Origin: an uncultured delta proteobacterium
GTDB taxonomy: Bacteria > Desulfobacterota > Binatia > JACPRU01
Assembly (NCBI GenBank): GCA_963745025.1
Contig: CAVUWD010000010.1
Span: 215,718-279,717 of the forward strand
Length of the DNA stretch: 64,000 nucleotides
Reading direction: 5' to 3'
The notes beneath the pieces are model-generated. The model did no database searches, was not told the DNA's origin, and saw only the letters and a list, made by a program, of their open reading frames with translations. Position numbers and translations under genes: made by a program. Positions 38,779 to 60,922 of this stretch are shown piece after piece; the first letter of the stretch is position 1, and each line of letters starts with the position of its first letter.

Positions 38779-40203
38779 ATGCGGAGGATGTGGAGAAACG
38801 CTCCCACGGAGCGAGATCGAAGGACGTATTTGCGTGTCGCCTTATTCGTGGCGCCCTTCGTCCTCCTCTTCGTGGTCCTGCTCGCCGTCAAATCGGCGGA
38901 CTCTTCCGCTGCCTTCCGAATCGACAACCAGCTCGTGCTGGAGAATCTGAAGCGGCAGATCGCCGCGACGGCGCCGCAGACCGAGCTGGCGGTGACTCCC
39001 GAGGCGGTCGCTGTCCTGAACACCGAGGTTGCTGCCGCCACGACGACCACCTCTGCGTCAGAGCTTCGCGAGATCCGCGAGGTGGTGCACAAAGGCGACA
39101 CGCTCGGTAGCATCCTTCGTCGCATCGGATTGAGCGCCGACGAGGTGACCCGTTGGTCGGGGACGACTCGTCGGCACGTGAGCCTCGGGCATTTGCAGCC
39201 CGGCCGTCGCTTCGCGTTTCTGCTGCCGAGCGGAACGGACCAACTCGCCGGTCTCCAGTACGAGGTGTCTCCAGAGGCCACGCTGGTGATGCGCAAGGAC
39301 GGCGACGAGATCACGGCGCAAGTGGAGCGGCTGCCGCGGATGGTCGACACGCGCGTCGTCTCGGGCGTGATCGAATCGAGCCTCTACGCCGCCGCCGCGC
39401 GCCGCGGCGTGCCCGACTCGGTGATCTCGAGTCTCGTCGACATCTTCAGCTGGGAGATCGATTTCTCCTCGGACCTCGAGTCGGGTGACACGTTCCGCGT
39501 CGCCTACGAAGAGACGCGCGACGCGGTCGGAAGGGCCCAAGGCGGGCGGGTGATCGCTGCGGAGGTCGTCGTCGGCGGCAAGCGGTGGGACGCGGTCTAT
39601 TTCGAGGACGCCGACGACGGCGGCAGCTACTATACACCGGAGGGGAAACCCTTCGGGCGCGCCTTCCTGCGATATCCGCTCGAGTTCACTCGGATCACGT
39701 CGCAGTTCACCTCGTCCCGCTTCCATCCGTTACTTGGCATCAACCGGCCCCATCTCGCCGTGGACTTCGCCGCGCCGATAGGCACGCCGGTGCGGGCCAT
39801 CGCCTCGGGACGAGTCGTGTACGCGGGCTGGAATGGCGGCTCCGGGCGCTACATCCGTATCGACCATGGGTCGGGAATCGAAACCTCGTACTCGCATCTG
39901 CGGTCGATTTCGGCATCGGTACGCACCGGCATGCGGGTGCAGGTCGGGCAGATGATCGGCGCGGTCGGCGCAAGCGGGCTGACGACCGGTCCCCACCTCC
40001 ACTTCGCGCTCTATCGCAACGGAGTGTACGTCAACCCGATGACGGTGAAGCTGCCGGCCTCCCCGCCACTGCCGGCGCAGTACATGAGCGAGTTCGCCCG
40101 CACCCGCGACCAGGCGATGCGTCAGCTCGCGTCGGCCGGGACCGGGGAAACGCCCGGCGAGGTACGCATGGCGGGCGCCCCGGCAGCGTCGCGGACGAAT
40201 TGA
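38779..40203 (+). CDS. M23-family peptidoglycan DD-endopeptidase (MepM-like)
   Basis: N-terminal TM, LysM/OapA-like region, HLAVD (HxxxD), YSHL, TGPHLHF. Confidence 0.9.
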   Translation: MRRMWRNAPTERDRRTYLRVALFVAPFVLLFVVLLAVKSADSSAAFRIDNQLVLENLKRQIAATAPQTELAVTPEAVAVLNTEVAAATTTTSASELREIREVVHKGDTLGSILRRIGLSADEVTRWSGTTRRHVSLGHLQPGRRFAFLLPSGTDQLAGLQYEVSPEATLVMRKDGDEITAQVERLPRMVDTRVVSGVIESSLYAAAARRGVPDSVISSLVDIFSWEIDFSSDLESGDTFRVAYEETRDAVGRAQGGRVIAAEVVVGGKRWDAVYFEDADDGGSYYTPEGKPFGRAFLRYPLEFTRITSQFTSSRFHPLLGINRPHLAVDFAAPIGTPVRAIASGRVVYAGWNGGSGRYIRIDHGSGIETSYSHLRSISASVRTGMRVQVGQMIGAVGASGLTTGPHLHFALYRNGVYVNPMTVKLPASPPLPAQYMSEFARTRDQAMRQLASAGTGETPGEVRMAGAPAASRTN

Positions 40204-40237: not shown

Positions 40238-41041
40238 ATGGGTCGCGGCTATTTCACCCGCCCGCTGCCACGCCTGTTCGGCCATCGAGGTGCGGCGGGG
40301 ATCGCGCCGGAAAACACGATGGCCTCCTTCCGCCGAGCCTTCGAGGATGGCGCCGACTATTTCGAGCTCGACGTGCATGCGACGCGCGACGGGGTCGTGG
40401 TGGTGATTCACGACCCGACCCTGGAGCGGACGACCAACGGTGCGGGCGCGGTTCGTGATCTGACCTTCGCCGAGCTCGAGCGCTTCGACGCAGGGTTTCG
40501 CTTCGTGCACGGCGGGTCCTACGCGTTTCGGGGACAAGGCGTGCGGGTGCCGGCGCTCGAGGAGCTACTGGAGGAGTTTCCGGAGGTCCCTCTCAACATC
40601 GAGATCAAGCAGGCCGAGCCGCCGATCGAGCCTGCGGTCGTCTCGCTGCTCGAGCGCAAGGGCGCTCTCGACCGCGTCGTGCTCGCAGCGGAAGACGATC
40701 GGATCATAAGACGCATTCGCGCACACGCGCCGGGCGCGGCGACGAGCGCCTCGTACGGAGAGGTTCGGGATTTCTTCGACCGCTGCTTCGCCGATCGTTT
40801 CGAGGGATATGTGCCCGAGGCTCGCGCGCTGCAGATCCCGGACCGCTTCGGCGACATCGATCTCGTCAGCCCGGAGACGCTCGCCGCCGCCCGCCGTTTC
40901 GGTCTCGAGGTGCACGTCTGGACGGTGAACGAGGAGAGCGAGATCGAGCGCTTGCTCCGGCTCGGCGTCGACGGCGTGATGTCGGACTTTCCTTCGCGGC
41001 TCGTCGCGGTTGCGCGGGGGAGATCGTCGGCGAATCCCTGA
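40238..41041 (+). CDS. Glycerophosphodiester phosphodiesterase
   Basis: GHRG, PENT, ELDV, HD, NIEIK, VWTVN, GVDGVMSD. Confidence 0.92.
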   Translation: MGRGYFTRPLPRLFGHRGAAGIAPENTMASFRRAFEDGADYFELDVHATRDGVVVVIHDPTLERTTNGAGAVRDLTFAELERFDAGFRFVHGGSYAFRGQGVRVPALEELLEEFPEVPLNIEIKQAEPPIEPAVVSLLERKGALDRVVLAAEDDRIIRRIRAHAPGAATSASYGEVRDFFDRCFADRFEGYVPEARALQIPDRFGDIDLVSPETLAAARRFGLEVHVWTVNEESEIERLLRLGVDGVMSDFPSRLVAVARGRSSANP

Positions 41042-41984
41042 GCTCGGCGAGCAGCCGTCGCCAGGCGGCGCGCTCACGACTCGGCGCGAAAAGCCGCGCG
41101 ATCTTCCGGCAGTGGCGGGCGAGCCGAGAGTAGAAGGATGTGTCGCGCTCGGCGCGTCGCAGCAGGCGCGCGAGACCGGCCGTATCGCCGGGCTCGAAGT
41201 ATCCGGGATAATCGGCGCCGAGAAGGCCGATCGATCCCGGGATCCGGCTGGCGAGCACGGGCACCCCTGCAGCGGCGGATTCCGAGATCACGTTAGCCCC
41301 GCCTTCCATGCGCGACGCGAGGACGAGTAGGCGCGAACGCGCGAGGCGGGCGAGCGCCTCGCGCCGTGGCCGTTCGCCGAGCCAGCGATAGCGGGGGTTC
41401 CGCTCGTTCTCGGTGCGCGCGCGGCGCTCGAGCGCCGGCGTCATCGCCTTGCCGAGATGAACGACCCGGATGCGTGATCTCGCGGGCAAACGCCGAGCGG
41501 CCAACGCCGCGCGCATCGGATCCTTGACCGGCCGTAAGTGGCCGATCACCGCGACCTCGAAGACCTCTCGCGTGGGGCGCGGCTGGTCCGAACGGCCGGG
41601 TGCCGACTGGTAGATGACGCGCGCCTTGCTGCGCAGCGCACGCGGTAGCTCGCGGAGGCCTAGCGGCTGGAGAAGAACGACGCGGCGGGCATGCCCGAGC
41701 GCCCGTCTCGCCCGCTCGCATCGCCGGAGATCGCGGTAGAGATCGGTTCCGGTCAGTGCGACGACGATCGGCAGCTCCGGCCGAACGCGGCGAAACGCCT
41801 CGACCGACCCGGCGCTCTTCCGCGCGTGCAGTGCGATCAGCAGGTCGCAGTCGTGCTCCCCGAATCGCTCGGCGATCGTCACACGGTGACCGAGCCCGCG
41901 AAGGATCCCCGCCCAGCGAAGCGCGGTGATGCGGTTTCCGTGCCGGGTCCGCGCCGGCGCCGGGCACGCGATGAGAATCTTCAC
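40866..41984 (-). CDS. senB: Selenosugar synthase SenB (selenoneine-biosynthesis glycosyltransferase)
   Basis: GNRITALRW, IALHARKS, TGTDLYRD, GHLRPVKDP, SRMEGGANV, LLGADYPGYF; adjacent to senA. Homologous region ends near 41040, and the tail overlaps the GDPD gene. Confidence 0.85.
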   Translation of the reverse strand: MKILIACPAPARTRHGNRITALRWAGILRGLGHRVTIAERFGEHDCDLLIALHARKSAGSVEAFRRVRPELPIVVALTGTDLYRDLRRCERARRALGHARRVVLLQPLGLRELPRALRSKARVIYQSAPGRSDQPRPTREVFEVAVIGHLRPVKDPMRAALAARRLPARSRIRVVHLGKAMTPALERRARTENERNPRYRWLGERPRREALARLARSRLLVLASRMEGGANVISESAAAGVPVLASRIPGSIGLLGADYPGYFEPGDTAGLARLLRRAERDTSFYSRLARHCRKIARLFAPSRERAAWRRLLAELRDSPTISPAQPRRAAKESPTSRRRRRAGASARSRSPRSPSRRAPRDRNGGRRRASPG

Positions 41985-42169
41985 CGGCCGGTGTATTCCA
42001 CGAAAATTCCGCTATGCTAAGACACGTTCGATGGAGAGGAGGCCGCTCACGCGCCGGTGGTCGGCGATTCTCTGTACATCCGCTGCGCTCGGTTTCGTGT
42101 GGCTCGCCGGTGCGCGCGGCGCAGGCAGCGATCCCTGGAAGCGCCTCGAAGAGAGCTCATTGTGAATTG

Positions 42170-43477
42170 ATGGCCGGCACACCGAGCGACATTGCCGCGG
42201 AGCTCGTCGCCTGGCACCGCGACGCGCGGCGGCGGACGCTCGAGCTGGTCGCGGCGCTCGACGATCGACAGCTGATGGGCCCTCGCCTCCCGATCGTCAA
42301 TCCGATGCGCTGGGAGGTGGGTCACGTCGCCTGGTTCCAGGAATTCTGGGTGCTGCGTCACGCGTGCGGGGAAAGCCCCATCCGCGTCGATGCAGACTCC
42401 CTCTACGATTCGTTCAAGGTCGCGCACGACACGCGCTGGGACCTGCCGCTGCCGTCTATGCCGGACACTCTCGCATACGGCGACGCGGTCTTCGACCGCG
42501 TGCTCGCTCGCCTGGGATCACGCGAGCCGACGGCGGACGAGGCTTATTTCCACCGCCTCGCGATCTTCCACGAGGACATGCACGGCGAGGCGTTCGCCTA
42601 CACGCGGCAGACCCTGGCCTATCCACCACCGGAGCTCCGCGTCGCGCGTGGCGCGCCGGAGATGAAGACACCCGTTCCGATGGGCGACGCCGACGTGCCC
42701 GGCGGCACGTTCCTGCTCGGCGCGAGCGACGCTCTTCCCTTCGTGTTCGACAACGAAAAATGGGCGCACGCCGTCGCGCTCCGCCCGTTTCGCATCGCAC
42801 GCACGCCGGTCACCAACGCCGAGTTCGCGGAGTTCGTCGCGGTCGGGGGCTATCGAGAGCGGCGCTTCTGGTCAGAGGAAGGGTGGGCATGGAAGGAAGC
42901 CACGCGAGCCGGTGCCCCGTCCTACTGGAGAGAGACCGGAACGGGGCGATGGCAACGGCGCGCCTTCGACCACTGGGTGCCACTCGAGCTCGAGCACCCC
43001 GTGATTCACGTGAGCTGGCACGAAGCCAACGCCTACTGTCGCTGGCGGGAGCGGCGGTTGCCGAGCGAAGCGGAATGGGAGATGGCTGCGGCCCTCGATC
43101 CCGAGATTCCAAGCGGCCGCCCACGTCTCTACCCGTGGGGCGACGAGCCGCCGCGCGCGGAGCAGGCCAACCTTGACGGTAGGGCGCTCGGCCCGATCGC
43201 CGTCGGCGCGCTGCCGGCGGGTGACAGCGCCTTCGGCTGCCGGCAGCTTCTCGGCAACGTGTGGGAATGGACGGCGAGCGACTTCCTTCCGTACCCGGGC
43301 TTCGTGGCCGATCCCTACAAAGAATATTCCGCCCCCTGGTTCGGCACCCACAAAGGGTTGCGGGGCGGGTCGTGGGCGACGCCGGGACGACTCCTCCGCA
43401 ACACGTGGCGAAACTTCTATACCGCGGATCGACGAGACATCTTCGCGGGATTTCGCACCTGCGCACTGAACCGATGA
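42170..43477 (+). CDS. senA: Selenoneine synthase SenA (EgtB-like DinB + FGE-sulfatase domains)
   Basis: NPMRWEVGHVAWFQEFW, LYDS..VAHDTRW, FHEDMHGEA, FDNEKWAH, GNVWEW, YKEYSAPWFG, RNFY...RRDIFAGFRTC; next to senB. Confidence 0.85.
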   Translation: MAGTPSDIAAELVAWHRDARRRTLELVAALDDRQLMGPRLPIVNPMRWEVGHVAWFQEFWVLRHACGESPIRVDADSLYDSFKVAHDTRWDLPLPSMPDTLAYGDAVFDRVLARLGSREPTADEAYFHRLAIFHEDMHGEAFAYTRQTLAYPPPELRVARGAPEMKTPVPMGDADVPGGTFLLGASDALPFVFDNEKWAHAVALRPFRIARTPVTNAEFAEFVAVGGYRERRFWSEEGWAWKEATRAGAPSYWRETGTGRWQRRAFDHWVPLELEHPVIHVSWHEANAYCRWRERRLPSEAEWEMAAALDPEIPSGRPRLYPWGDEPPRAEQANLDGRALGPIAVGALPAGDSAFGCRQLLGNVWEWTASDFLPYPGFVADPYKEYSAPWFGTHKGLRGGSWATPGRLLRNTWRNFYTADRRDIFAGFRTCALNR

Positions 43478-57900: not shown

Positions 57901-60189
57901 CTAGTCGGGACAGGCCGGGTCGGCGCAGGTGATCGGCGTCAGCGAGTTTTCGGTGATCGTGAAGCGGTGGCCGCCCTCGAGATCGTCGAACCGCGTGGTC
58001 GCGCCGGAGGGCCAGGTGATCTCCAGCTCGCGGATGAGATTCTCCTCGGCGAGGCCGAAGTGCTGGATCGAGCTCTGCTGGGACAGGTACGCGGACCCCG
58101 CTCCGACGACGCGGGTCTGCCAGCCGTGGCCGGTGCGCAGGCGAATCTTCGCGCCCACGGCGTCGCGGTTCGAGACCGTGCCGACGAGCTTGAATTCGAC
58201 CCAATGCTCGCGGCCGCCGCGGTTCTTCAGGAGCTGGGTCGGCTGCTTGTAGTTGCGCAGCAAGAGATCGGGTTGGCCATCGTTGTTGTAGTCGAAGACG
58301 GAGAGCCCGCGCCCGTCTTCTTGCCGCGCGGCGCCGTTCACGAACGCGACGTCGGTGAACGTGCCGTCGCCGTTGTTGCGCAAGAGCACCTTTCGCTCAC
58401 GACCGTTCAGGCTGTGCGAACCGATGTTCAGCAGCGTTCCGGTCGTCTGATCGAGGCGTCGACCGACGCCTTCGAACATGTCCATTCAGACGTCGTCGGG
58501 GAGCTGGCCGGTGACGAAGCCGTTCTCGGCGAAGATGTCGAGCCGGCCGTCGTTGTCGTAGTCGAGGAACTCCGCTCCCCAGCCCCACTGCGCGTCGCGC
58601 ACGCCGGCCTGTCTGGACACGTCGGTGAACGTGCCGTTCCCATTGTTGCGGAAGAGCGTCCAGCCGCGCGTCAGGTCCTCGATGATTTGATCGGAGCGGC
58701 GCTTCACTTCCGTCGTGAAGACTCCGAGCAGCCGGAAGTACCAAGGCGCCGGCACCGGAAAGTCTGGATGAAAGAGCGCCCAGCGCGAGTTCGCGTACAT
58801 GTTGGAGACGTAGACGTCGAGATCTCCGTCGCCGTCGTAGTCGCCCCACGCGACACCCATGCCCGCGGTACGGATCCTCGCGCCGCTCTTTGCGCTCACG
58901 TCCTCGAACGTACCGTCGCCGCGGTTCCGGTAGAGCACCGAAAATCCGAATTCGTTGGCGACGTACAAATCGGGCCAACCGTCGTTGTCGTAGTCGCCCC
59001 AGGCGCCGGCGAGCCCCCAGCCCCTGTCGCCCACGCGCGCTTGCCCCGTCACGTCGGTGAACGTGCCGTCATGGTTGTTGTGGAGCAGCTGGTTCGGCAA
59101 TCCATTGTTGGCTTCGTAGTTGGGCCTCGGGCTCGTCTTTTCGTGATCTCCCATGCGCACGACGTAGACGTCGAGGAAGCCGTCGCGGTCGTAGTCTGCG
59201 ACGGTCGCCATGCTCGACCAGGCGCCCTCTGGAATGCCGGCCTCGACGGTGACGTCGACGAATCGCGGAGCCCCGTCGCTGCCCGGGAGGTTGTGGAAGA
59301 GGCGGTTGCCGCCCTTGATCGCCGCCACGAAGAGATCGGGCCGGCCGTCGTTGTCGTAGTCGAAGAACACGGCGCCCGTGGCGACGGCCGGGAAGGGGTG
59401 GGGAATGCCCCACTGCGCGGTGACGTCCGTGAACGTGCCGTTGCAGTCGTTCTTGTAGAGAACCGCCTCGGGATCGCCGGGGAGGAAAAGGTCCTCGCAG
59501 CCGTCCCCGTCGACGTCGGCGACGGCGGTTCCCGCGCTGCTCGTCGTGCCGCCGATCATCCGGAAGATCGGCGAGCCCGCGTTGGTGTGGGTGTTTCGGA
59601 TCCCCGCTTCCTCGGTGGCGAGGGCGAACCGCGGCTCGCGGCGCGAGACCATCTCGCGCGCGGTGACTTCCTCGGCGGTGATGCGCCAGTCCTTGCTTCG
59701 CTGCGCGATGTGGATGTGCATGCGTTGATCGAGCTGCGCGGCGGAACCGTCGGCGCGCGTGCCCCGGACGATCAGATGAACGTCGGCCGGATACCCTTCG
59801 GCATCGGCCGCGTCCCAGTAGATTCGGTGAATGCGTAGCTCCGCCTTGTCGACCGTGGGGAAGAGATCGAGAATCCGCTGATAGCGATCGCGGATCGACT
59901 CGCGTCCGGTCGATCCTTGCCAACGGACCATCTCCTCCTCTTGCTGCGGGTAGATCGCACGGCTCCCGTCCCAGAGCAGGCCCGAGCCGGCGTCGGTCAC
60001 GTAGAGCGAAAGGATCTGATCCAGGTCGCGCGACTTGATGTACGCCGGCAGGTGACGGTGGAACTCGGAATTGATCGGGTCGATGACCGTCTGGCGGGTC
60101 GTTTCCCAGCGGTCCGCGCGCACGGCCGCCGGCGCGACGAGCGCGACCAGAACGGCGACGCCGAGAGCTCTACGTGCTGAACGATCCAT
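57901..60189 (-). CDS. Secreted FG-GAP/VCBS-repeat + ASPIC/UnbV (CRTAC1-like) protein with an in-frame UGA; candidate selenoprotein (~762 aa, Sec at about residue 568)
   Basis: Signal peptide MDRSARRALGVAVLVALVAPAAVRA; multiple DYDNDG..DL / RN.GDGTF.DV repeats; ...GQLPDDV-UGA-MDMFEG... continues in frame into a further FG-GAP repeat and ASPIC/UnbV (SNRDAVGA, YLSQQS, HFGL, ITWPSG). Confidence 0.75.
58444..58492 (-). promoter_or_regulatory. Bacterial SECIS-like stem-loop immediately 3' of the UGA
   Basis: mRNA: CGUCUGA AUGGACAUGU UCGA A GGCGUC [GGUC] GACGCC UCGA UCAGACG. 10-bp upper stem with one bulge, GGUC loop 21 nt after the UGA, and a 7-bp lower stem that includes the UGA. Confidence 0.72.
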
Positions 60190-60922
60190 GCCGACCGTGA
60201 CCTCCGCGGAACCGTCCGAGACCTCCGGAGAGCTCCGGCGAGGCGAGCGATCTCCCGCCGAGTGCAAATTCATTACGAATCGCCTCGTCCAATTCAAGCC
60301 CGAACTGGTCGTGGGCGGAGCGACGATCGTTGCGCATGCACTCCTGAGGGAAGCTTGCGATCTCGCGGGCGAGCGTCTCCGCGGCCTCTCGTGATTCGCC
60401 GTTGGCGACCACGCGGTTGGCGAGGCCCATCGCCAGCGCTTCGTCGGCCTTCACCGGCCGGCCGGTGAGAATCAGGTCGAGCGCGCGGGACAGGCCGATC
60501 AGCCGGGGCAGTCGCACCGTGCCTCCGTCGATCAGCGGCACGCCCCACCGTCGGCAGAAGACCGCGAAGACGGCGTCCTTTTCCGCGACCCGAAGATCGC
60601 ACCAGAGGGCGAGCTCGAGGCCGCCCGCGACCGCGTAGCCGGCCACCGCGGCAATGGCAGGCTTGGCGAGCATCATGCGCGAGACGCCCATCGGACCGTC
60701 TCCGTCGTCGCGGACGCGGTTGTCGAAATGCTTGAGGTCCGCGCCCGCGCAAAACGTTCCGTTCGCGCCCCACAGGACCGCGACGCGCGCCTCCGCGTCC
60801 GCTTCGAAGGCGCGGAACGCATCGGCGAGCGACTCGGCCGTAGCGCGGTCGACCGCGTTTCGGACCTCGGGACGATCGAGGATGATCGTTGTCACGACGT
60901 CCTGCTTCTCGACACGCACCAT
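60170..60922 (-). CDS. Enoyl-CoA hydratase/crotonase family protein
   Basis: RPEVRNAVD, FCAGADLK, AVAGGLELALWCDLR, WGVPLIDGGT. Confidence 0.93.
   Translation of the reverse strand: MVRVEKQDVVTTIILDRPEVRNAVDRATAESLADAFRAFEADAEARVAVLWGANGTFCAGADLKHFDNRVRDDGDGPMGVSRMMLAKPAIAAVAGYAVAGGLELALWCDLRVAEKDAVFAVFCRRWGVPLIDGGTVRLPRLIGLSRALDLILTGRPVKADEALAMGLANRVVANGESREAAETLAREIASFPQECMRNDRRSAHDQFGLELDEAIRNEFALGGRSLASPELSGGLGRFRGGHGRHGSFST

What the first reader, a model, noticed from the sequence alone, without database searches (positions are those of the whole stretch)
57901..60189. Candidate new secreted selenoprotein: FG-GAP/ASPIC-UnbV protein read through a UGA with a SECIS hairpin
Seen in the sequence: the ORF caller splits this gene into 58486..60297 and 57901..58485, but both are in the same frame and separated only by one TGA (58486-58488). 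There is no spacer or RBS before the apparent second ATG, and the FG-GAP repeat pattern continues across the stop. Directly 3' of the UGA is a strong hairpin, UCGA-A-GGCGUC-[GGUC]-GACGCC-UCGA, whose G-first GGUC loop lies 21 nt after the UGA, plus a lower stem (CGUCUGA/UCAGACG) that includes the UGA. Established: bacterial SECIS elements sit immediately 3' of the Sec UGA and have a short G-containing apical loop (the E. coli fdhF loop contains GGUC). CRTAC1-like proteins normally carry FG-GAP and ASPIC/UnbV domains in one chain. Inference: a ~762-aa exported protein (signal peptide, NTF2/SnoaL-like domain, Ca-binding propeller, Sec ~568, ASPIC/UnbV, C-terminal CADPAC). To my knowledge this is not one of the classical bacterial selenoprotein families, and the Sec is not in a CxxU redox motif. 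The senAB genes ~15 kb away independently suggest selenium metabolism in this genome.
Basis: partly seen in the sequence, partly recalled or inferred. Interest (0 to 1): 0.93.

Follow-up and report, generated by a model that had tools for sequence, protein, structure and literature searches.

The report
New exported selenoprotein, CRTAC1-like propeller
A gene for an exported calcium-binding propeller protein is read through one UGA codon as selenocysteine, which appears to define a selenoprotein family missing from current inventories and with no cysteine version.

Summary
The minus-strand gene 60189..57901 is one 762-codon frame with a single TGA at 58486-58488. Read through, it gives a signal peptide, an NTF2-like domain, an FG-GAP propeller and an UnbV_ASPIC domain. 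TGA sits at the same column in 27 of 27 genome loci that span the site. It is also TGA in 80 of 80 metagenome loci found with a pattern that left that codon free. The genes' real terminators are TGA in only 19 of 27 and 41 of 66. A 6-bp hairpin with a GGUC loop lies 21 nt downstream and pairs in 161 of 162 cells. Its codons are the four most synonymously frozen of 102 comparable columns. The genome holds selA, selB, a Sec-containing selD and tRNA-Sec. Points against: no homolog has a credibly aligned Cys (Val/Ile/Leu/Phe instead), the lower stem including the UGA is not conserved, 2 of 26 carrier genomes show no SelA or SelB, and selenium incorporation is untested. The family is absent from NCBIfam and from a 2026 table of 119 selenoprotein families. 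Verdict: a real selenoprotein (about 0.9), a new member of a known kind, biochemical function unknown.

The parts
57901..60189 (-). Whole selenoprotein gene: 762 codons plus the TAG stop at 57901-57903. ATG start at 60189-60187.
   Evidence: The start is supported by ortholog N-termini (MDRS.../MGRS...). The AF2 model of the fused chain has pLDDT 87.9 and pTM 0.89.
58486..58488 (-). In-frame UGA, read as selenocysteine U568.
   Evidence: TGA sits at the same alignment column in 27 of 27 genome loci. It is also TGA in 80 of 80 metagenome loci found with a pattern that left this codon free.
58455..58470 (-). Conserved SECIS-like apical hairpin GGCGUC-GGUC-GACGCC. The loop starts 21 nt after the UGA. 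The hairpin overlaps the codons for G574-V-G-R-R578.
   Evidence: Codon-level freezing is shown. The 16-mer alone folds at -9.6 kcal/mol.
60115..60189 (-). Predicted Sec-type signal peptide, residues 1-25 (MDRSARRALGVAVLVALVAPAAVRA|D).
   Evidence: Read from the sequence. Orthologs have comparable hydrophobic N-termini, and some have a lipobox (LLPASGC). No signal-peptide predictor was available.
59590..60117 (-). N-terminal domain with an NTF2-like fold, residues 25-200. It is specific to this Sec clade.
   Evidence: There is no Pfam hit even at E<=10. The AF2 model has pLDDT 90.9. The Foldseek hits shown above and just below E 0.001 are NTF2-like superfamily chains, plus LDB self-association domains at ranks 11 and 13. 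The best has E 3.7e-4, and TM scores run 0.4-0.64.
58240..59577 (-). FG-GAP beta-propeller with DxDxDG-type calcium-binding motifs, residues about 205-650. The UGA lies inside it, in a loop between strands 551-556 and 601-605.
   Evidence: Pfam FG-GAP_3 (E 3.3e-54, 6 stretches) and FG-GAP. DSSP of the model. Foldseek top hit is murine CRTAC1 9etn_A, E 7.4e-30, TMt 0.74.
58660..58794 (-). Clade-specific insertion, residues about 466-510 (ANSRWALFHPDFPxPxPW...). W470 is invariant and H474 is in 20 of 21; all 12 non-Sec homologs compared have gaps at these positions.
   Evidence: Alignment A3 and the clade-specific residue count. That it lies near the Sec loop in space is inferred, not shown.
57967..58161 (-). 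UnbV_ASPIC domain, residues 677-741. It is encoded entirely downstream of the UGA.
   Evidence: Pfam PF07593, E 1.1e-15, 57.7 bits against a cut-off of 23.4.

Best explanation
This is one gene for an exported 762-residue CRTAC1-like protein. Its parts, in order, are a signal peptide, an NTF2-like domain, a calcium-binding FG-GAP propeller and an UnbV_ASPIC domain. Codon 568 is a UGA decoded as selenocysteine. The mechanism is the standard bacterial one: a short hairpin (6 bp, GGUC loop) 21 nt downstream, inside the coding sequence, recruits SelB with Sec-tRNA(Sec) to the ribosome paused at the UGA. The shown steps are the conserved UGA, the conserved hairpin under RNA-level selection, the presence of the Sec machinery, and a single fold that spans the UGA. 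The inferred steps are SelB binding and actual selenium insertion. The Sec sits on a roughly 35-residue inter-strand loop of the propeller. I infer that, together with a second clade-specific insertion (W470, H474), it forms a new reactive or soft-metal or chalcogen-binding site outside the cytoplasm. The chemistry is unknown.
For: (1) TGA is at the same column in 27 of 27 loci that span the site. These come from 26 of 401 genomes of the class, down to 36-38% identity.
(2) A metagenome scan with the Sec codon, the next codon and all third positions left free gave 80 loci, all with TGA, in 71 distinct 72-mers.
(3) Control: the same genes' real terminators are TGA 19, TAG 7, TAA 1 and TGA 41, TAG 18, TAA 7.
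(4) The frame stays open for 180-213 codons after the TGA in 27 of 27 genome loci, and for 179-374 codons in 63 of 66 metagenome loci that reach a stop.
(5) The codon after the UGA is not ATG in 10 of 27 genome loci and 27 of 80 metagenome loci, where it is CTG, CTC, ATT, ATC or ATA.
(6) The hairpin forms standard pairs in 161 of 162 cells. RNAalifold predicts exactly this helix on its own. Variants are U-A to U.G (7 sequences), G-C to G.U (2) and G-C to A-U double changes (3 cells).
(7) Of 102 conserved columns of 4- or 6-fold degenerate residues, the four lowest synonymous entropies are the hairpin codons: GGC 25/25, GTC 25/25, CGC 25/25 and GGT 24/25. GGT is a minor codon at all other 30 Gly columns.
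(8) The hairpin meets the published bSECIS criteria: loop 3-9 nt, stem 4-16 bp, G in the first two loop positions, spacing 16-37 nt, MFE <= -7.5 (PMC13188914, passages). Here the values are 4 nt, 6 bp, GG, 21 nt and -9.6 kcal/mol.
(9) The genome has selA, selB, tRNA-Sec and a selD with its own in-frame TGA. That selD UGA is followed 17 nt later by an 8-bp stem with a GGC loop.
(10) The AF2 model of the fused chain has pTM 0.89, with confident strands on both sides of the UGA. It matches the CRTAC1 crystal structure at TMt 0.74.
(11) Only the N-terminus has an export signal, so a separate C-terminal product could not join the exported part. This is an inference.
Against: - No homolog has a credibly aligned Cys at this position. 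The nearest full-length homologs have Val or Ile.
- Among 86 homologs whose BLAST alignment spans the site, the aligned residue is L 17, F 17, gap 10, V 9, A 7, Y 6, C 4, R 4, and others. Three of the four Cys alignments fall on other blades. The fourth lacks the loop.
- There is no CxxU/UxxC motif and no invariant partner Cys.
- Covariation is thin. The double changes come from two sequences of one divergent subclade, and the rest is conservation.
- The hairpin codons also encode an invariant VGRR, so protein constraint contributes to the conservation.
- An ATG lies at codon +1 or +3 in every genome locus, so reinitiation is not formally excluded.
- Two of the 26 carrier genomes, G132 (87% complete) and G135 (99% complete), show no SelA or SelB. 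SelA is in 339 of 401 genomes of the class anyway, so co-occurrence says little.
- Two of 27 loci carry frameshifts elsewhere in the gene.
- The Sec loop is modelled with pLDDT below 50.
- No selenium, protein or reliable RNA evidence exists.
Confidence: 0.9

Rival explanations
1. The gene is conserved as two parts. The UGA is a true stop, and the 194-residue UnbV_ASPIC part is made separately by termination-reinitiation at the adjacent ATG. The hairpin would slow the ribosome or simply reflect the conserved GVGRR peptide.
For: Gene callers split the gene in all public records seen. About 40 truncated 558-594 aa proteins end at DD[IV]. An ATG is present at codon +1 or +3 in all 27 genome loci. 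The hairpin's folding energy is not exceptional.
Against: TGA is used 107 of 107 times at the internal site, against 62-70% TGA at the true terminators. The +1 codon is non-ATG in 10 of 27 and 27 of 80 loci. There is no Shine-Dalgarno-like stretch. Synonymous sites are frozen, including the rare GGT codon. The propeller and the UnbV_ASPIC domain form one fold across the stop, with pTM 0.89. Only the N-terminal part has an export signal.
Confidence: 0.05
2. The UGA is read through without selenocysteine. A near-cognate tRNA inserts Trp, Cys or Arg, or another programmed read-through occurs, stimulated by the downstream hairpin.
For: The hairpin is short. Two carrier genomes show no SelA or SelB. 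No homolog has Cys at the site.
Against: The hairpin fits the bSECIS spacing and GG-loop rule. It also resembles the element behind this genome's own selD Sec codon. 24 of 26 carriers have SelA. The two exceptions are fragmented assemblies of 450 and 280 contigs, and genomes of the same genera have SelA. If any residue would do, a sense codon should have replaced the UGA somewhere among 107 loci.
Confidence: 0.04
3. The TGA is an artefact or the gene is a pseudogene: a sequencing error or a decaying gene.
For: Two of 27 loci have frameshifts elsewhere in the gene. Three of 66 metagenome loci have short downstream frames.
Against: The same TGA is found in 107 loci from many assemblies. Contigs from two other metagenomes bridge the site and list no difference at 58486-58488. 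Protein sequence is strongly conserved on both sides of the TGA.
Confidence: 0.01

Closest known systems
CRTAC1 / ASPIC / UnbV family (FG-GAP propeller plus UnbV_ASPIC domain; crystal structure of murine CRTAC1, 9etn)
   Same: The domain order, FG-GAP repeats followed by UnbV_ASPIC, is the same. There is a sequence match to 9etn_A at E 1.4e-17 and a fold match at E 7.4e-30 with TMt 0.74. The DxDxDG-type motifs are invariant.
   Different: Identity to bacterial CRTAC1-family proteins is only 37-41%. This clade adds an N-terminal NTF2-like domain, a roughly 45-residue insertion (residues 466-510) and a Sec in the inter-strand loop. The closest relatives with the same loop have Val or Ile there. 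No CRTAC1-family selenoprotein was found in print.
Bacterial SECIS consensus (bSECIS) and the E. coli fdhF element
   Same: The element lies directly 3' of the UGA inside the coding sequence. It has a small apical loop starting GG, 21 nt spacing and a 6-bp G+C-rich upper stem. All criteria quoted in PMC13188914 are met. That the fdhF loop also reads GGUC is recalled, not checked here.
   Different: No conserved bulged U or lower helix was found. No Rfam model matched, but Rfam's bacterial SECIS coverage was not checked.
Cell-envelope selenoproteins without a classical redox motif in the 2026 inventory (FCYXU-type TonB-dependent receptor, GSU2204/MtrB-PioB-like outer-membrane protein, ExtKL multihaem cytochrome)
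   Same: These are predicted exported or envelope selenoproteins. Several are listed with '-' as the Sec motif (Table 1 of PMC13188914).
   Different: The folds differ. Where the papers say, those families have Cys-containing homologs; for example, deep-Sep requires them. This family has none.
This genome's own Sec-containing SelD
   Same: It has an in-frame UGA followed by a G+C-rich hairpin with a GG-initial loop (GGC) 17 nt downstream. It would be read by the same SelB.
   Different: It is a cytoplasmic enzyme, its Sec sits in the known UxxK loop, and the family has many Cys forms (PMC13188914).

Membership tests
Bacterial selenoprotein (SelB/bSECIS-dependent UGA recoding) | In-frame UGA conserved at one column among orthologs, with the coding frame conserved on both sides | tested here: met
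   27 of 27 genome loci and 80 of 80 metagenome loci have TGA. Downstream frames stay open for 180-213 codons.
Bacterial selenoprotein (SelB/bSECIS-dependent UGA recoding) | [quoted passage not shown] 2 legend) | tested here: met
   The loop is GGUC, the stem is 6 bp, the spacing is 21 nt (24 nt in L113 and L114), and the MFE is -9.6 kcal/mol. The bare 16-mer of the divergent L113 variant reaches only -4.9 kcal/mol.
Bacterial selenoprotein (SelB/bSECIS-dependent UGA recoding) | The hairpin is conserved as RNA, beyond what the protein sequence requires | tested here: met
   The four hairpin codons have the lowest synonymous entropy of 102 comparable columns. 161 of 162 cells are paired. True covariation is limited to 3 cells.
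Bacterial selenoprotein (SelB/bSECIS-dependent UGA recoding) | The genome encodes selA, selB, selD and tRNA-Sec | tested here: met
   Across carrier genomes, 24 of 26 have SelA. G132 and G135 show neither SelA nor SelB.
Bacterial selenoprotein (SelB/bSECIS-dependent UGA recoding) | Cys-containing homologs aligned at the Sec position (usual, but not strictly defining) | tested here: not met
   An exhaustive search with the N-terminal domain found no protein longer than 574 aa among 53 hits.
Bacterial selenoprotein (SelB/bSECIS-dependent UGA recoding) | Selenium actually incorporated at the UGA | not testable with these tools
   This needs 75Se labelling or mass spectrometry.
CRTAC1 / ASPIC-UnbV family | FG-GAP repeats followed by an UnbV_ASPIC domain in one chain | tested here: met
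   Pfam PF13517, PF01839 and PF07593 are all above their cut-offs on the read-through product.
CRTAC1 / ASPIC-UnbV family | Fold like the solved CRTAC1 structure | tested here: met
   Foldseek hit 9etn_A: E 7.4e-30, TMt 0.74, 620 columns.
NTF2-like / SnoaL-like superfamily (N-terminal domain) | Sequence match to a Pfam NTF2/SnoaL family | tested here: not met
   No Pfam family matched at E<=10.
NTF2-like / SnoaL-like superfamily (N-terminal domain) | Alpha+beta cone fold like solved NTF2-like proteins | tested here: inconclusive
   Most listed Foldseek hits are NTF2-like chains. The scores are weak: best E 3.7e-4, TM 0.36-0.64.
Two independent genes (split CRTAC1) | The second ORF has its own start codon and ribosome-binding site | tested here: not met
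   The +1 codon is CTG, CTC, ATT, ATC or ATA in 10 of 27 and 27 of 80 loci. There is no spacer and no SD-like stretch.

The most novel reading that the evidence does not exclude
The Sec has no Cys counterpart anywhere. It arose on a loop where relatives carry Val or Ile, together with a second clade-specific insertion (W470, H474) and an added NTF2-like domain. The boldest reading not excluded is that this clade built a new extracellular selenium-dependent active site on a CRTAC1 propeller, a selenoenzyme or selenium-dependent binding protein with chemistry that Cys cannot replace. In several lineages it may act on the product of neighbouring radical-SAM, acyl-ligase and acyltransferase genes. 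It would also be the first functional handle on the large and so far function-less bacterial CRTAC1/UnbV family.
Probability: 0.3. Interest if true: 0.85.

Novelty: new member of a known kind. Interest (0 to 1): 0.7.

Why it matters
Bacterial selenoprotein discovery relies largely on Sec/Cys pairs. The deep-Sep authors state that their method may miss families without Cys homologs. This family is such a case. Every public protein record seen truncates it at the UGA and loses the UnbV_ASPIC domain. It occurs in 26 of 401 sampled genomes of its class. If confirmed, it adds an exported, non-thioredoxin-fold family to an inventory that is dominated by redox motifs. It also shows Sec arising at a non-Cys position. 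It gives a clean example of an RNA signal that freezes a peptide (GVGRR). Finally, it offers an entry point to the unknown function of bacterial CRTAC1-like proteins.

Tried and rejected
- Single-sequence folding and a crude genome-wide scan for TGA plus hairpin (105 hits) cannot tell this site from chance. I did not use either as support.
- The Rfam E-value scan of 58300-58600 gave only three chance-level hits; the best is a 16-nt match to a viral frameshift hairpin at E 5.7.
- The search for related loci on genome contigs was swamped by generic FG-GAP patterns.
- The phylum-level genome sample found nothing beyond G000.
- SelA co-occurrence is uninformative, because 339 of 401 genomes of the class have SelA. 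That tally includes six genomes flagged as unpublished (G350, G340, G371, G212, G343, G207). None of them carries the gene, and no other claim rests on them.
- Read laying: RNA-library contigs X16 and X18 cover only parts of the gene (for example 58624-58821, 59763-60147) and none bridges the UGA. The tool warns that DNA can be present in such libraries, so transcription is not shown.
- The hairpin 16-mer motif occurs a second time in the genome (C11), but not at an in-frame TGA.
- Gene neighbourhood: the upstream crotonase is kept only in the closest relatives. A B12-binding radical SAM gene follows the gene in 15 of 41 longer loci. In G000 its ortholog lies on another contig, so I draw no functional conclusion.
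- The AF2 model gives no usable geometry for the Sec loop (pLDDT below 50), and the tool returns no coordinates. The proposed proximity of U568 to W470 and H474 is untested.
- Literature: the Haft papers on new selenoprotein families (PMC9879109, PMC12013261) are not held. What I know of them is recalled only.
- Supplementary tables of deep-Sep and BSepDB are closed and could list this family.
- 'Not in print' rests on searches, on term look-ups in four papers, and on Table 1 of PMC13188914 read in full.
Full report
**What is in the sequence**

On the minus strand, an ATG at 60189 opens a frame that runs to a TAG at 57903-57901. It is interrupted only by a TGA at 58488-58486. Read with TGA=U, it gives 762 residues with U568.

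The ORF caller's two pieces, 58486..60297 and 57901..58485, are in the same frame and abut with no spacer. The twelve bases before the second ATG (CCCGACGACGTC) contain nothing like a Shine-Dalgarno sequence.

Pfam on the read-through product finds FG-GAP_3 (E 3.3e-54, six stretches), FG-GAP, and UnbV_ASPIC at residues 677-741. FG-GAP motifs continue after the TGA. NCBIfam release 20 has no model that matches the protein.

**The hairpin in this one sequence**

Its energy is ordinary for this DNA: z = -0.97, and 36 of 200 shuffles fold as well. The genome is 65.9% G+C.

My own crude scan of the genome looked for a TGA with open frames on both sides and a hairpin of at least 6 bp with a G-initial loop. 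It gave 105 hits. The single-sequence observation is therefore real but proves nothing by itself.

**Comparative evidence for recoding**

- A protein search with residues 470-762 found about 40 close relatives at 70-86% identity. They are 558-594 aa long and all end at DD[IV], exactly where the TGA lies.
- That search found no full-length close relative.
- Whole-genome searches that read through stops found the gene in 7 of 41 relatives and in 26 of 401 genomes of the class.
- Every match that spans the site has an in-frame TGA.
- I mapped the site in all 28 loci. 27 have TGA at the same column, and the 28th (L110) is cut by its contig end.
- The 27 include two divergent members at 36-38% identity in alignment A3 (L113, L114).
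- A sample of 400 other genomes of the phylum had none.

I then scanned metagenome contigs with a degenerate pattern built from the flanking peptide. The Sec codon, the following codon and all third positions were left free. All 80 have TGA, in 71 distinct 72-mers.

As a control, the same genes' real terminators are mixed. They are TGA 19, TAG 7 and TAA 1 in the genome loci. They are TGA 41, TAG 18 and TAA 7 in the metagenome loci.

After the internal TGA the frame stays open for 180-213 codons in 27 of 27 genome loci. It stays open for 179-374 codons in 63 of 66 metagenome loci that reach a stop.

The codon after the TGA is not ATG in 10 of 27 and 27 of 80 loci; it is CTG, CTC, ATT, ATC or ATA there.

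Contigs from two other metagenomes bridge the site and list no difference at 58486-58488.

**The RNA signal**

In an alignment of 27 sequences from -9 to +51 (A2), RNAalifold predicts exactly one helix: GGCGUC/GACGCC closing a GGUC loop.

Counting pairs gives 161 of 162 cells as standard pairs. The variants are:
- U-A to U.G in 7 sequences;
- G-C to G.U in 2 sequences;
- G-C to A-U double changes at two pairs, 3 cells in all, in L113 and L114.

That is little true covariation, and it probably reflects one event.

The stronger argument comes from codons. In a codon alignment of 25 orthologs there are 102 conserved columns of 4- or 6-fold degenerate residues. The four with the lowest synonymous entropy are exactly the hairpin codons: GGC 25/25, GTC 25/25, CGC 25/25 and GGT 24/25. 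GGT is a minority codon at each of the other 30 Gly columns.

In the metagenome set, where the pattern allowed any third base, GTC and GGT are 80 of 80. Every 16-mer variant keeps pairing through G.U.

The element meets the bSECIS criteria as quoted in the 2026 review (PMC13188914, passages seen):

| Criterion | Required | Here |
|---|---|---|
| Apical loop | 3-9 nt | 4 nt |
| G in the first two loop positions | yes | GG |
| Upper stem | 4-16 bp | 6 bp |
| Spacing from the UGA | 16-37 nt | 21 nt (24 nt in L113 and L114) |
| MFE | <= -7.5 kcal/mol | -9.6 kcal/mol |

Two pairs of the middle stem are broken in 16-17 of 27 sequences. Rfam gave nothing meaningful.

**The machinery**

The genome has selA and selB. 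It has a selD with one in-frame TGA at the known Sec position. It also has a tRNA-Sec with anticodon UCA.

The selD UGA is followed 17 nt later by an 8-bp stem with a GGC loop. This organism's SelB therefore already reads a GG-initial small loop.

Among the 26 carrier genomes, 24 have SelA. G132 (87% complete, 450 contigs) and G135 (99% complete, 280 contigs) show neither SelA nor SelB. Genomes of the same genera do have SelA. SelA is present in 339 of 401 genomes of the class, so this co-occurrence neither helps nor hurts much.

**The protein**

An AF2 model built from 33 aligned sequences (A3) has mean pLDDT 87.9 and pTM 0.89. It has confident strands on both sides of the UGA (551-556 and 601-605) and a low-confidence loop at 562-592 that carries U568.

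Its best structural match is the crystal structure of murine CRTAC1: 9etn_A, E 7.4e-30, TMt 0.74. 9etn_A is also the only PDB match by sequence.

The N-terminal domain (residues 25-200) has no Pfam hit even at E<=10. A confident model of it (pLDDT 90.9) matches mostly NTF2-like proteins, weakly: best E 3.7e-4, TM 0.36-0.64.

The N-terminus looks like a Sec-type signal peptide. Several orthologs have a lipobox instead. No predictor was available, so this is my reading of the sequence.

The C-terminal CADPAC-like motif is confined to the four closest loci.

**No cysteine form**

- In A3 the Sec column is the only column that is 'C' in all 21 TGA-bearing sequences, so there is no invariant partner Cys.
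- The six nearest full-length homologs that share the loop have Val or Ile at that column.
- A second protein search focused on residues 545-645 found no full-length ortholog. The best full-coverage hits are 32-37% identical.
- Among 238 retrieved homologs, 86 BLAST alignments span the site. The aligned residue is L 17, F 17, gap 10, V 9, A 7, Y 6, C 4, R 4, and others.
- Three of the four Cys alignments fall on other blades. The fourth (P0035) lacks the loop.
- An exhaustive HMMER search of 1.84 billion representatives with the clade-specific N-terminal domain found 53 proteins. The longest is 574 aa, so none reads past the Sec position.

This is the main departure from the usual pattern, and it counts against a routine Sec assignment. 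It also explains why pipelines based on Sec/Cys pairs would miss the family. The deep-Sep authors say as much about their own method.

**Clues to function**

These are weak. Residues invariant in the Sec clade but different or absent in other CRTAC1 proteins include D565, D566, U568, V575, G576 and R578. They also include a roughly 45-residue insertion (residues 466-510) with W470, H474 and several prolines.

I infer, but cannot show, that the two insertions form a new site on one face of the propeller.

Neighbouring genes are not conserved with G000's. Among 41 loci of at least 4.5 kb:
- a B12-binding radical SAM gene follows directly on the same strand in 15;
- a PaaK-like AMP-ligase lies divergently upstream in 10;
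- a ThiH/NosL-like radical SAM gene is present in 9;
- an LpxL-like acyltransferase is present in 9.

In G000 the orthologs of these genes lie on other contigs. The link may therefore be synteny within one lineage.

**Comparison with what is known**

The recoding mechanism is the ordinary bacterial one. The protein family is not on record as a selenoprotein.
- No paper in the library holds selenocysteine together with UnbV.
- The papers that hold CRTAC1, ASPIC or FG-GAP together with selenoprotein terms are unrelated.
- Four recent method, database and review papers have no occurrence of FG-GAP, ASPIC, CRTAC1 or UnbV.
- Table 1 of the 2026 review lists 119 families or subfamilies. I read it in full, and it has no entry with these domains.

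**Verdict**

I put the probability of a real selenoprotein at about 0.9. It is a new member of a known kind, notable for its fold, its export and the absence of any Cys form. Its biochemical role is open.

Noticed in passing
window 40866-43477: A divergent senB (40866..41984, -) and senA (42014..43477, +) pair, for selenoneine biosynthesis. Both score above their NCBIfam cut-offs: TIGR04348 at 400.6 bits and NF041186 at 521.3 bits. The genome therefore uses selenium in at least two ways.
   Followed up: partly
G000 contig C20:20417-24790 (loci L001-L003): selD, selB and selA lie together on one strand. selD itself carries an in-frame TGA (KAAG-U-AAKLG). An 8-bp stem with a GGC loop follows 17 nt later.
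   Followed up: partly
L097:3786-5183, L103:4-1398 and 13 further loci: A B12-binding radical SAM gene (PF02310 plus PF04055; no NCBIfam family reaches its cut-off) follows the selenoprotein gene on the same strand in 15 of 41 loci of at least 4.5 kb. Other recurring neighbours are a PaaK-like AMP-ligase, a ThiH/NosL-like radical SAM gene, an LpxL-like acyltransferase and an HpnL/flippase-like membrane protein. In G000 their orthologs lie on contigs C13 and C16.
   Followed up: partly
window 58660-58794 (residues 466-510): An insertion found only in the TGA-bearing clade (ANSRWALFHPDFPxPxPW...). W470 is invariant and H474 is in 20 of 21. It may be a partner of the Sec loop.
   Followed up: no
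L113 and L114 (G170, G153): A divergent subclade at 36-38% identity keeps the UGA and the VGRR hairpin. It has one extra codon of spacing (24 nt) and A-U in place of G-C at the two lowest pairs.
   Followed up: partly
L111 (G162) and L115 (G063, second copy): These copies have two frameshifts and one frameshift, respectively, elsewhere in the gene, yet keep the TGA and the hairpin. They are either assembly errors or decaying copies. G031 and G063 each carry two copies.
   Followed up: no
window 60170-60922: An enoyl-CoA hydratase-like gene ends 20 nt inside the start of the selenoprotein gene, on the same strand. The arrangement is kept only in the closest relatives L009-L011.
   Followed up: partly
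window 38779-40203: An M23 peptidoglycan DD-endopeptidase-like gene. It is similar to ShyC and MepM but scores below their cut-offs.
   Followed up: no
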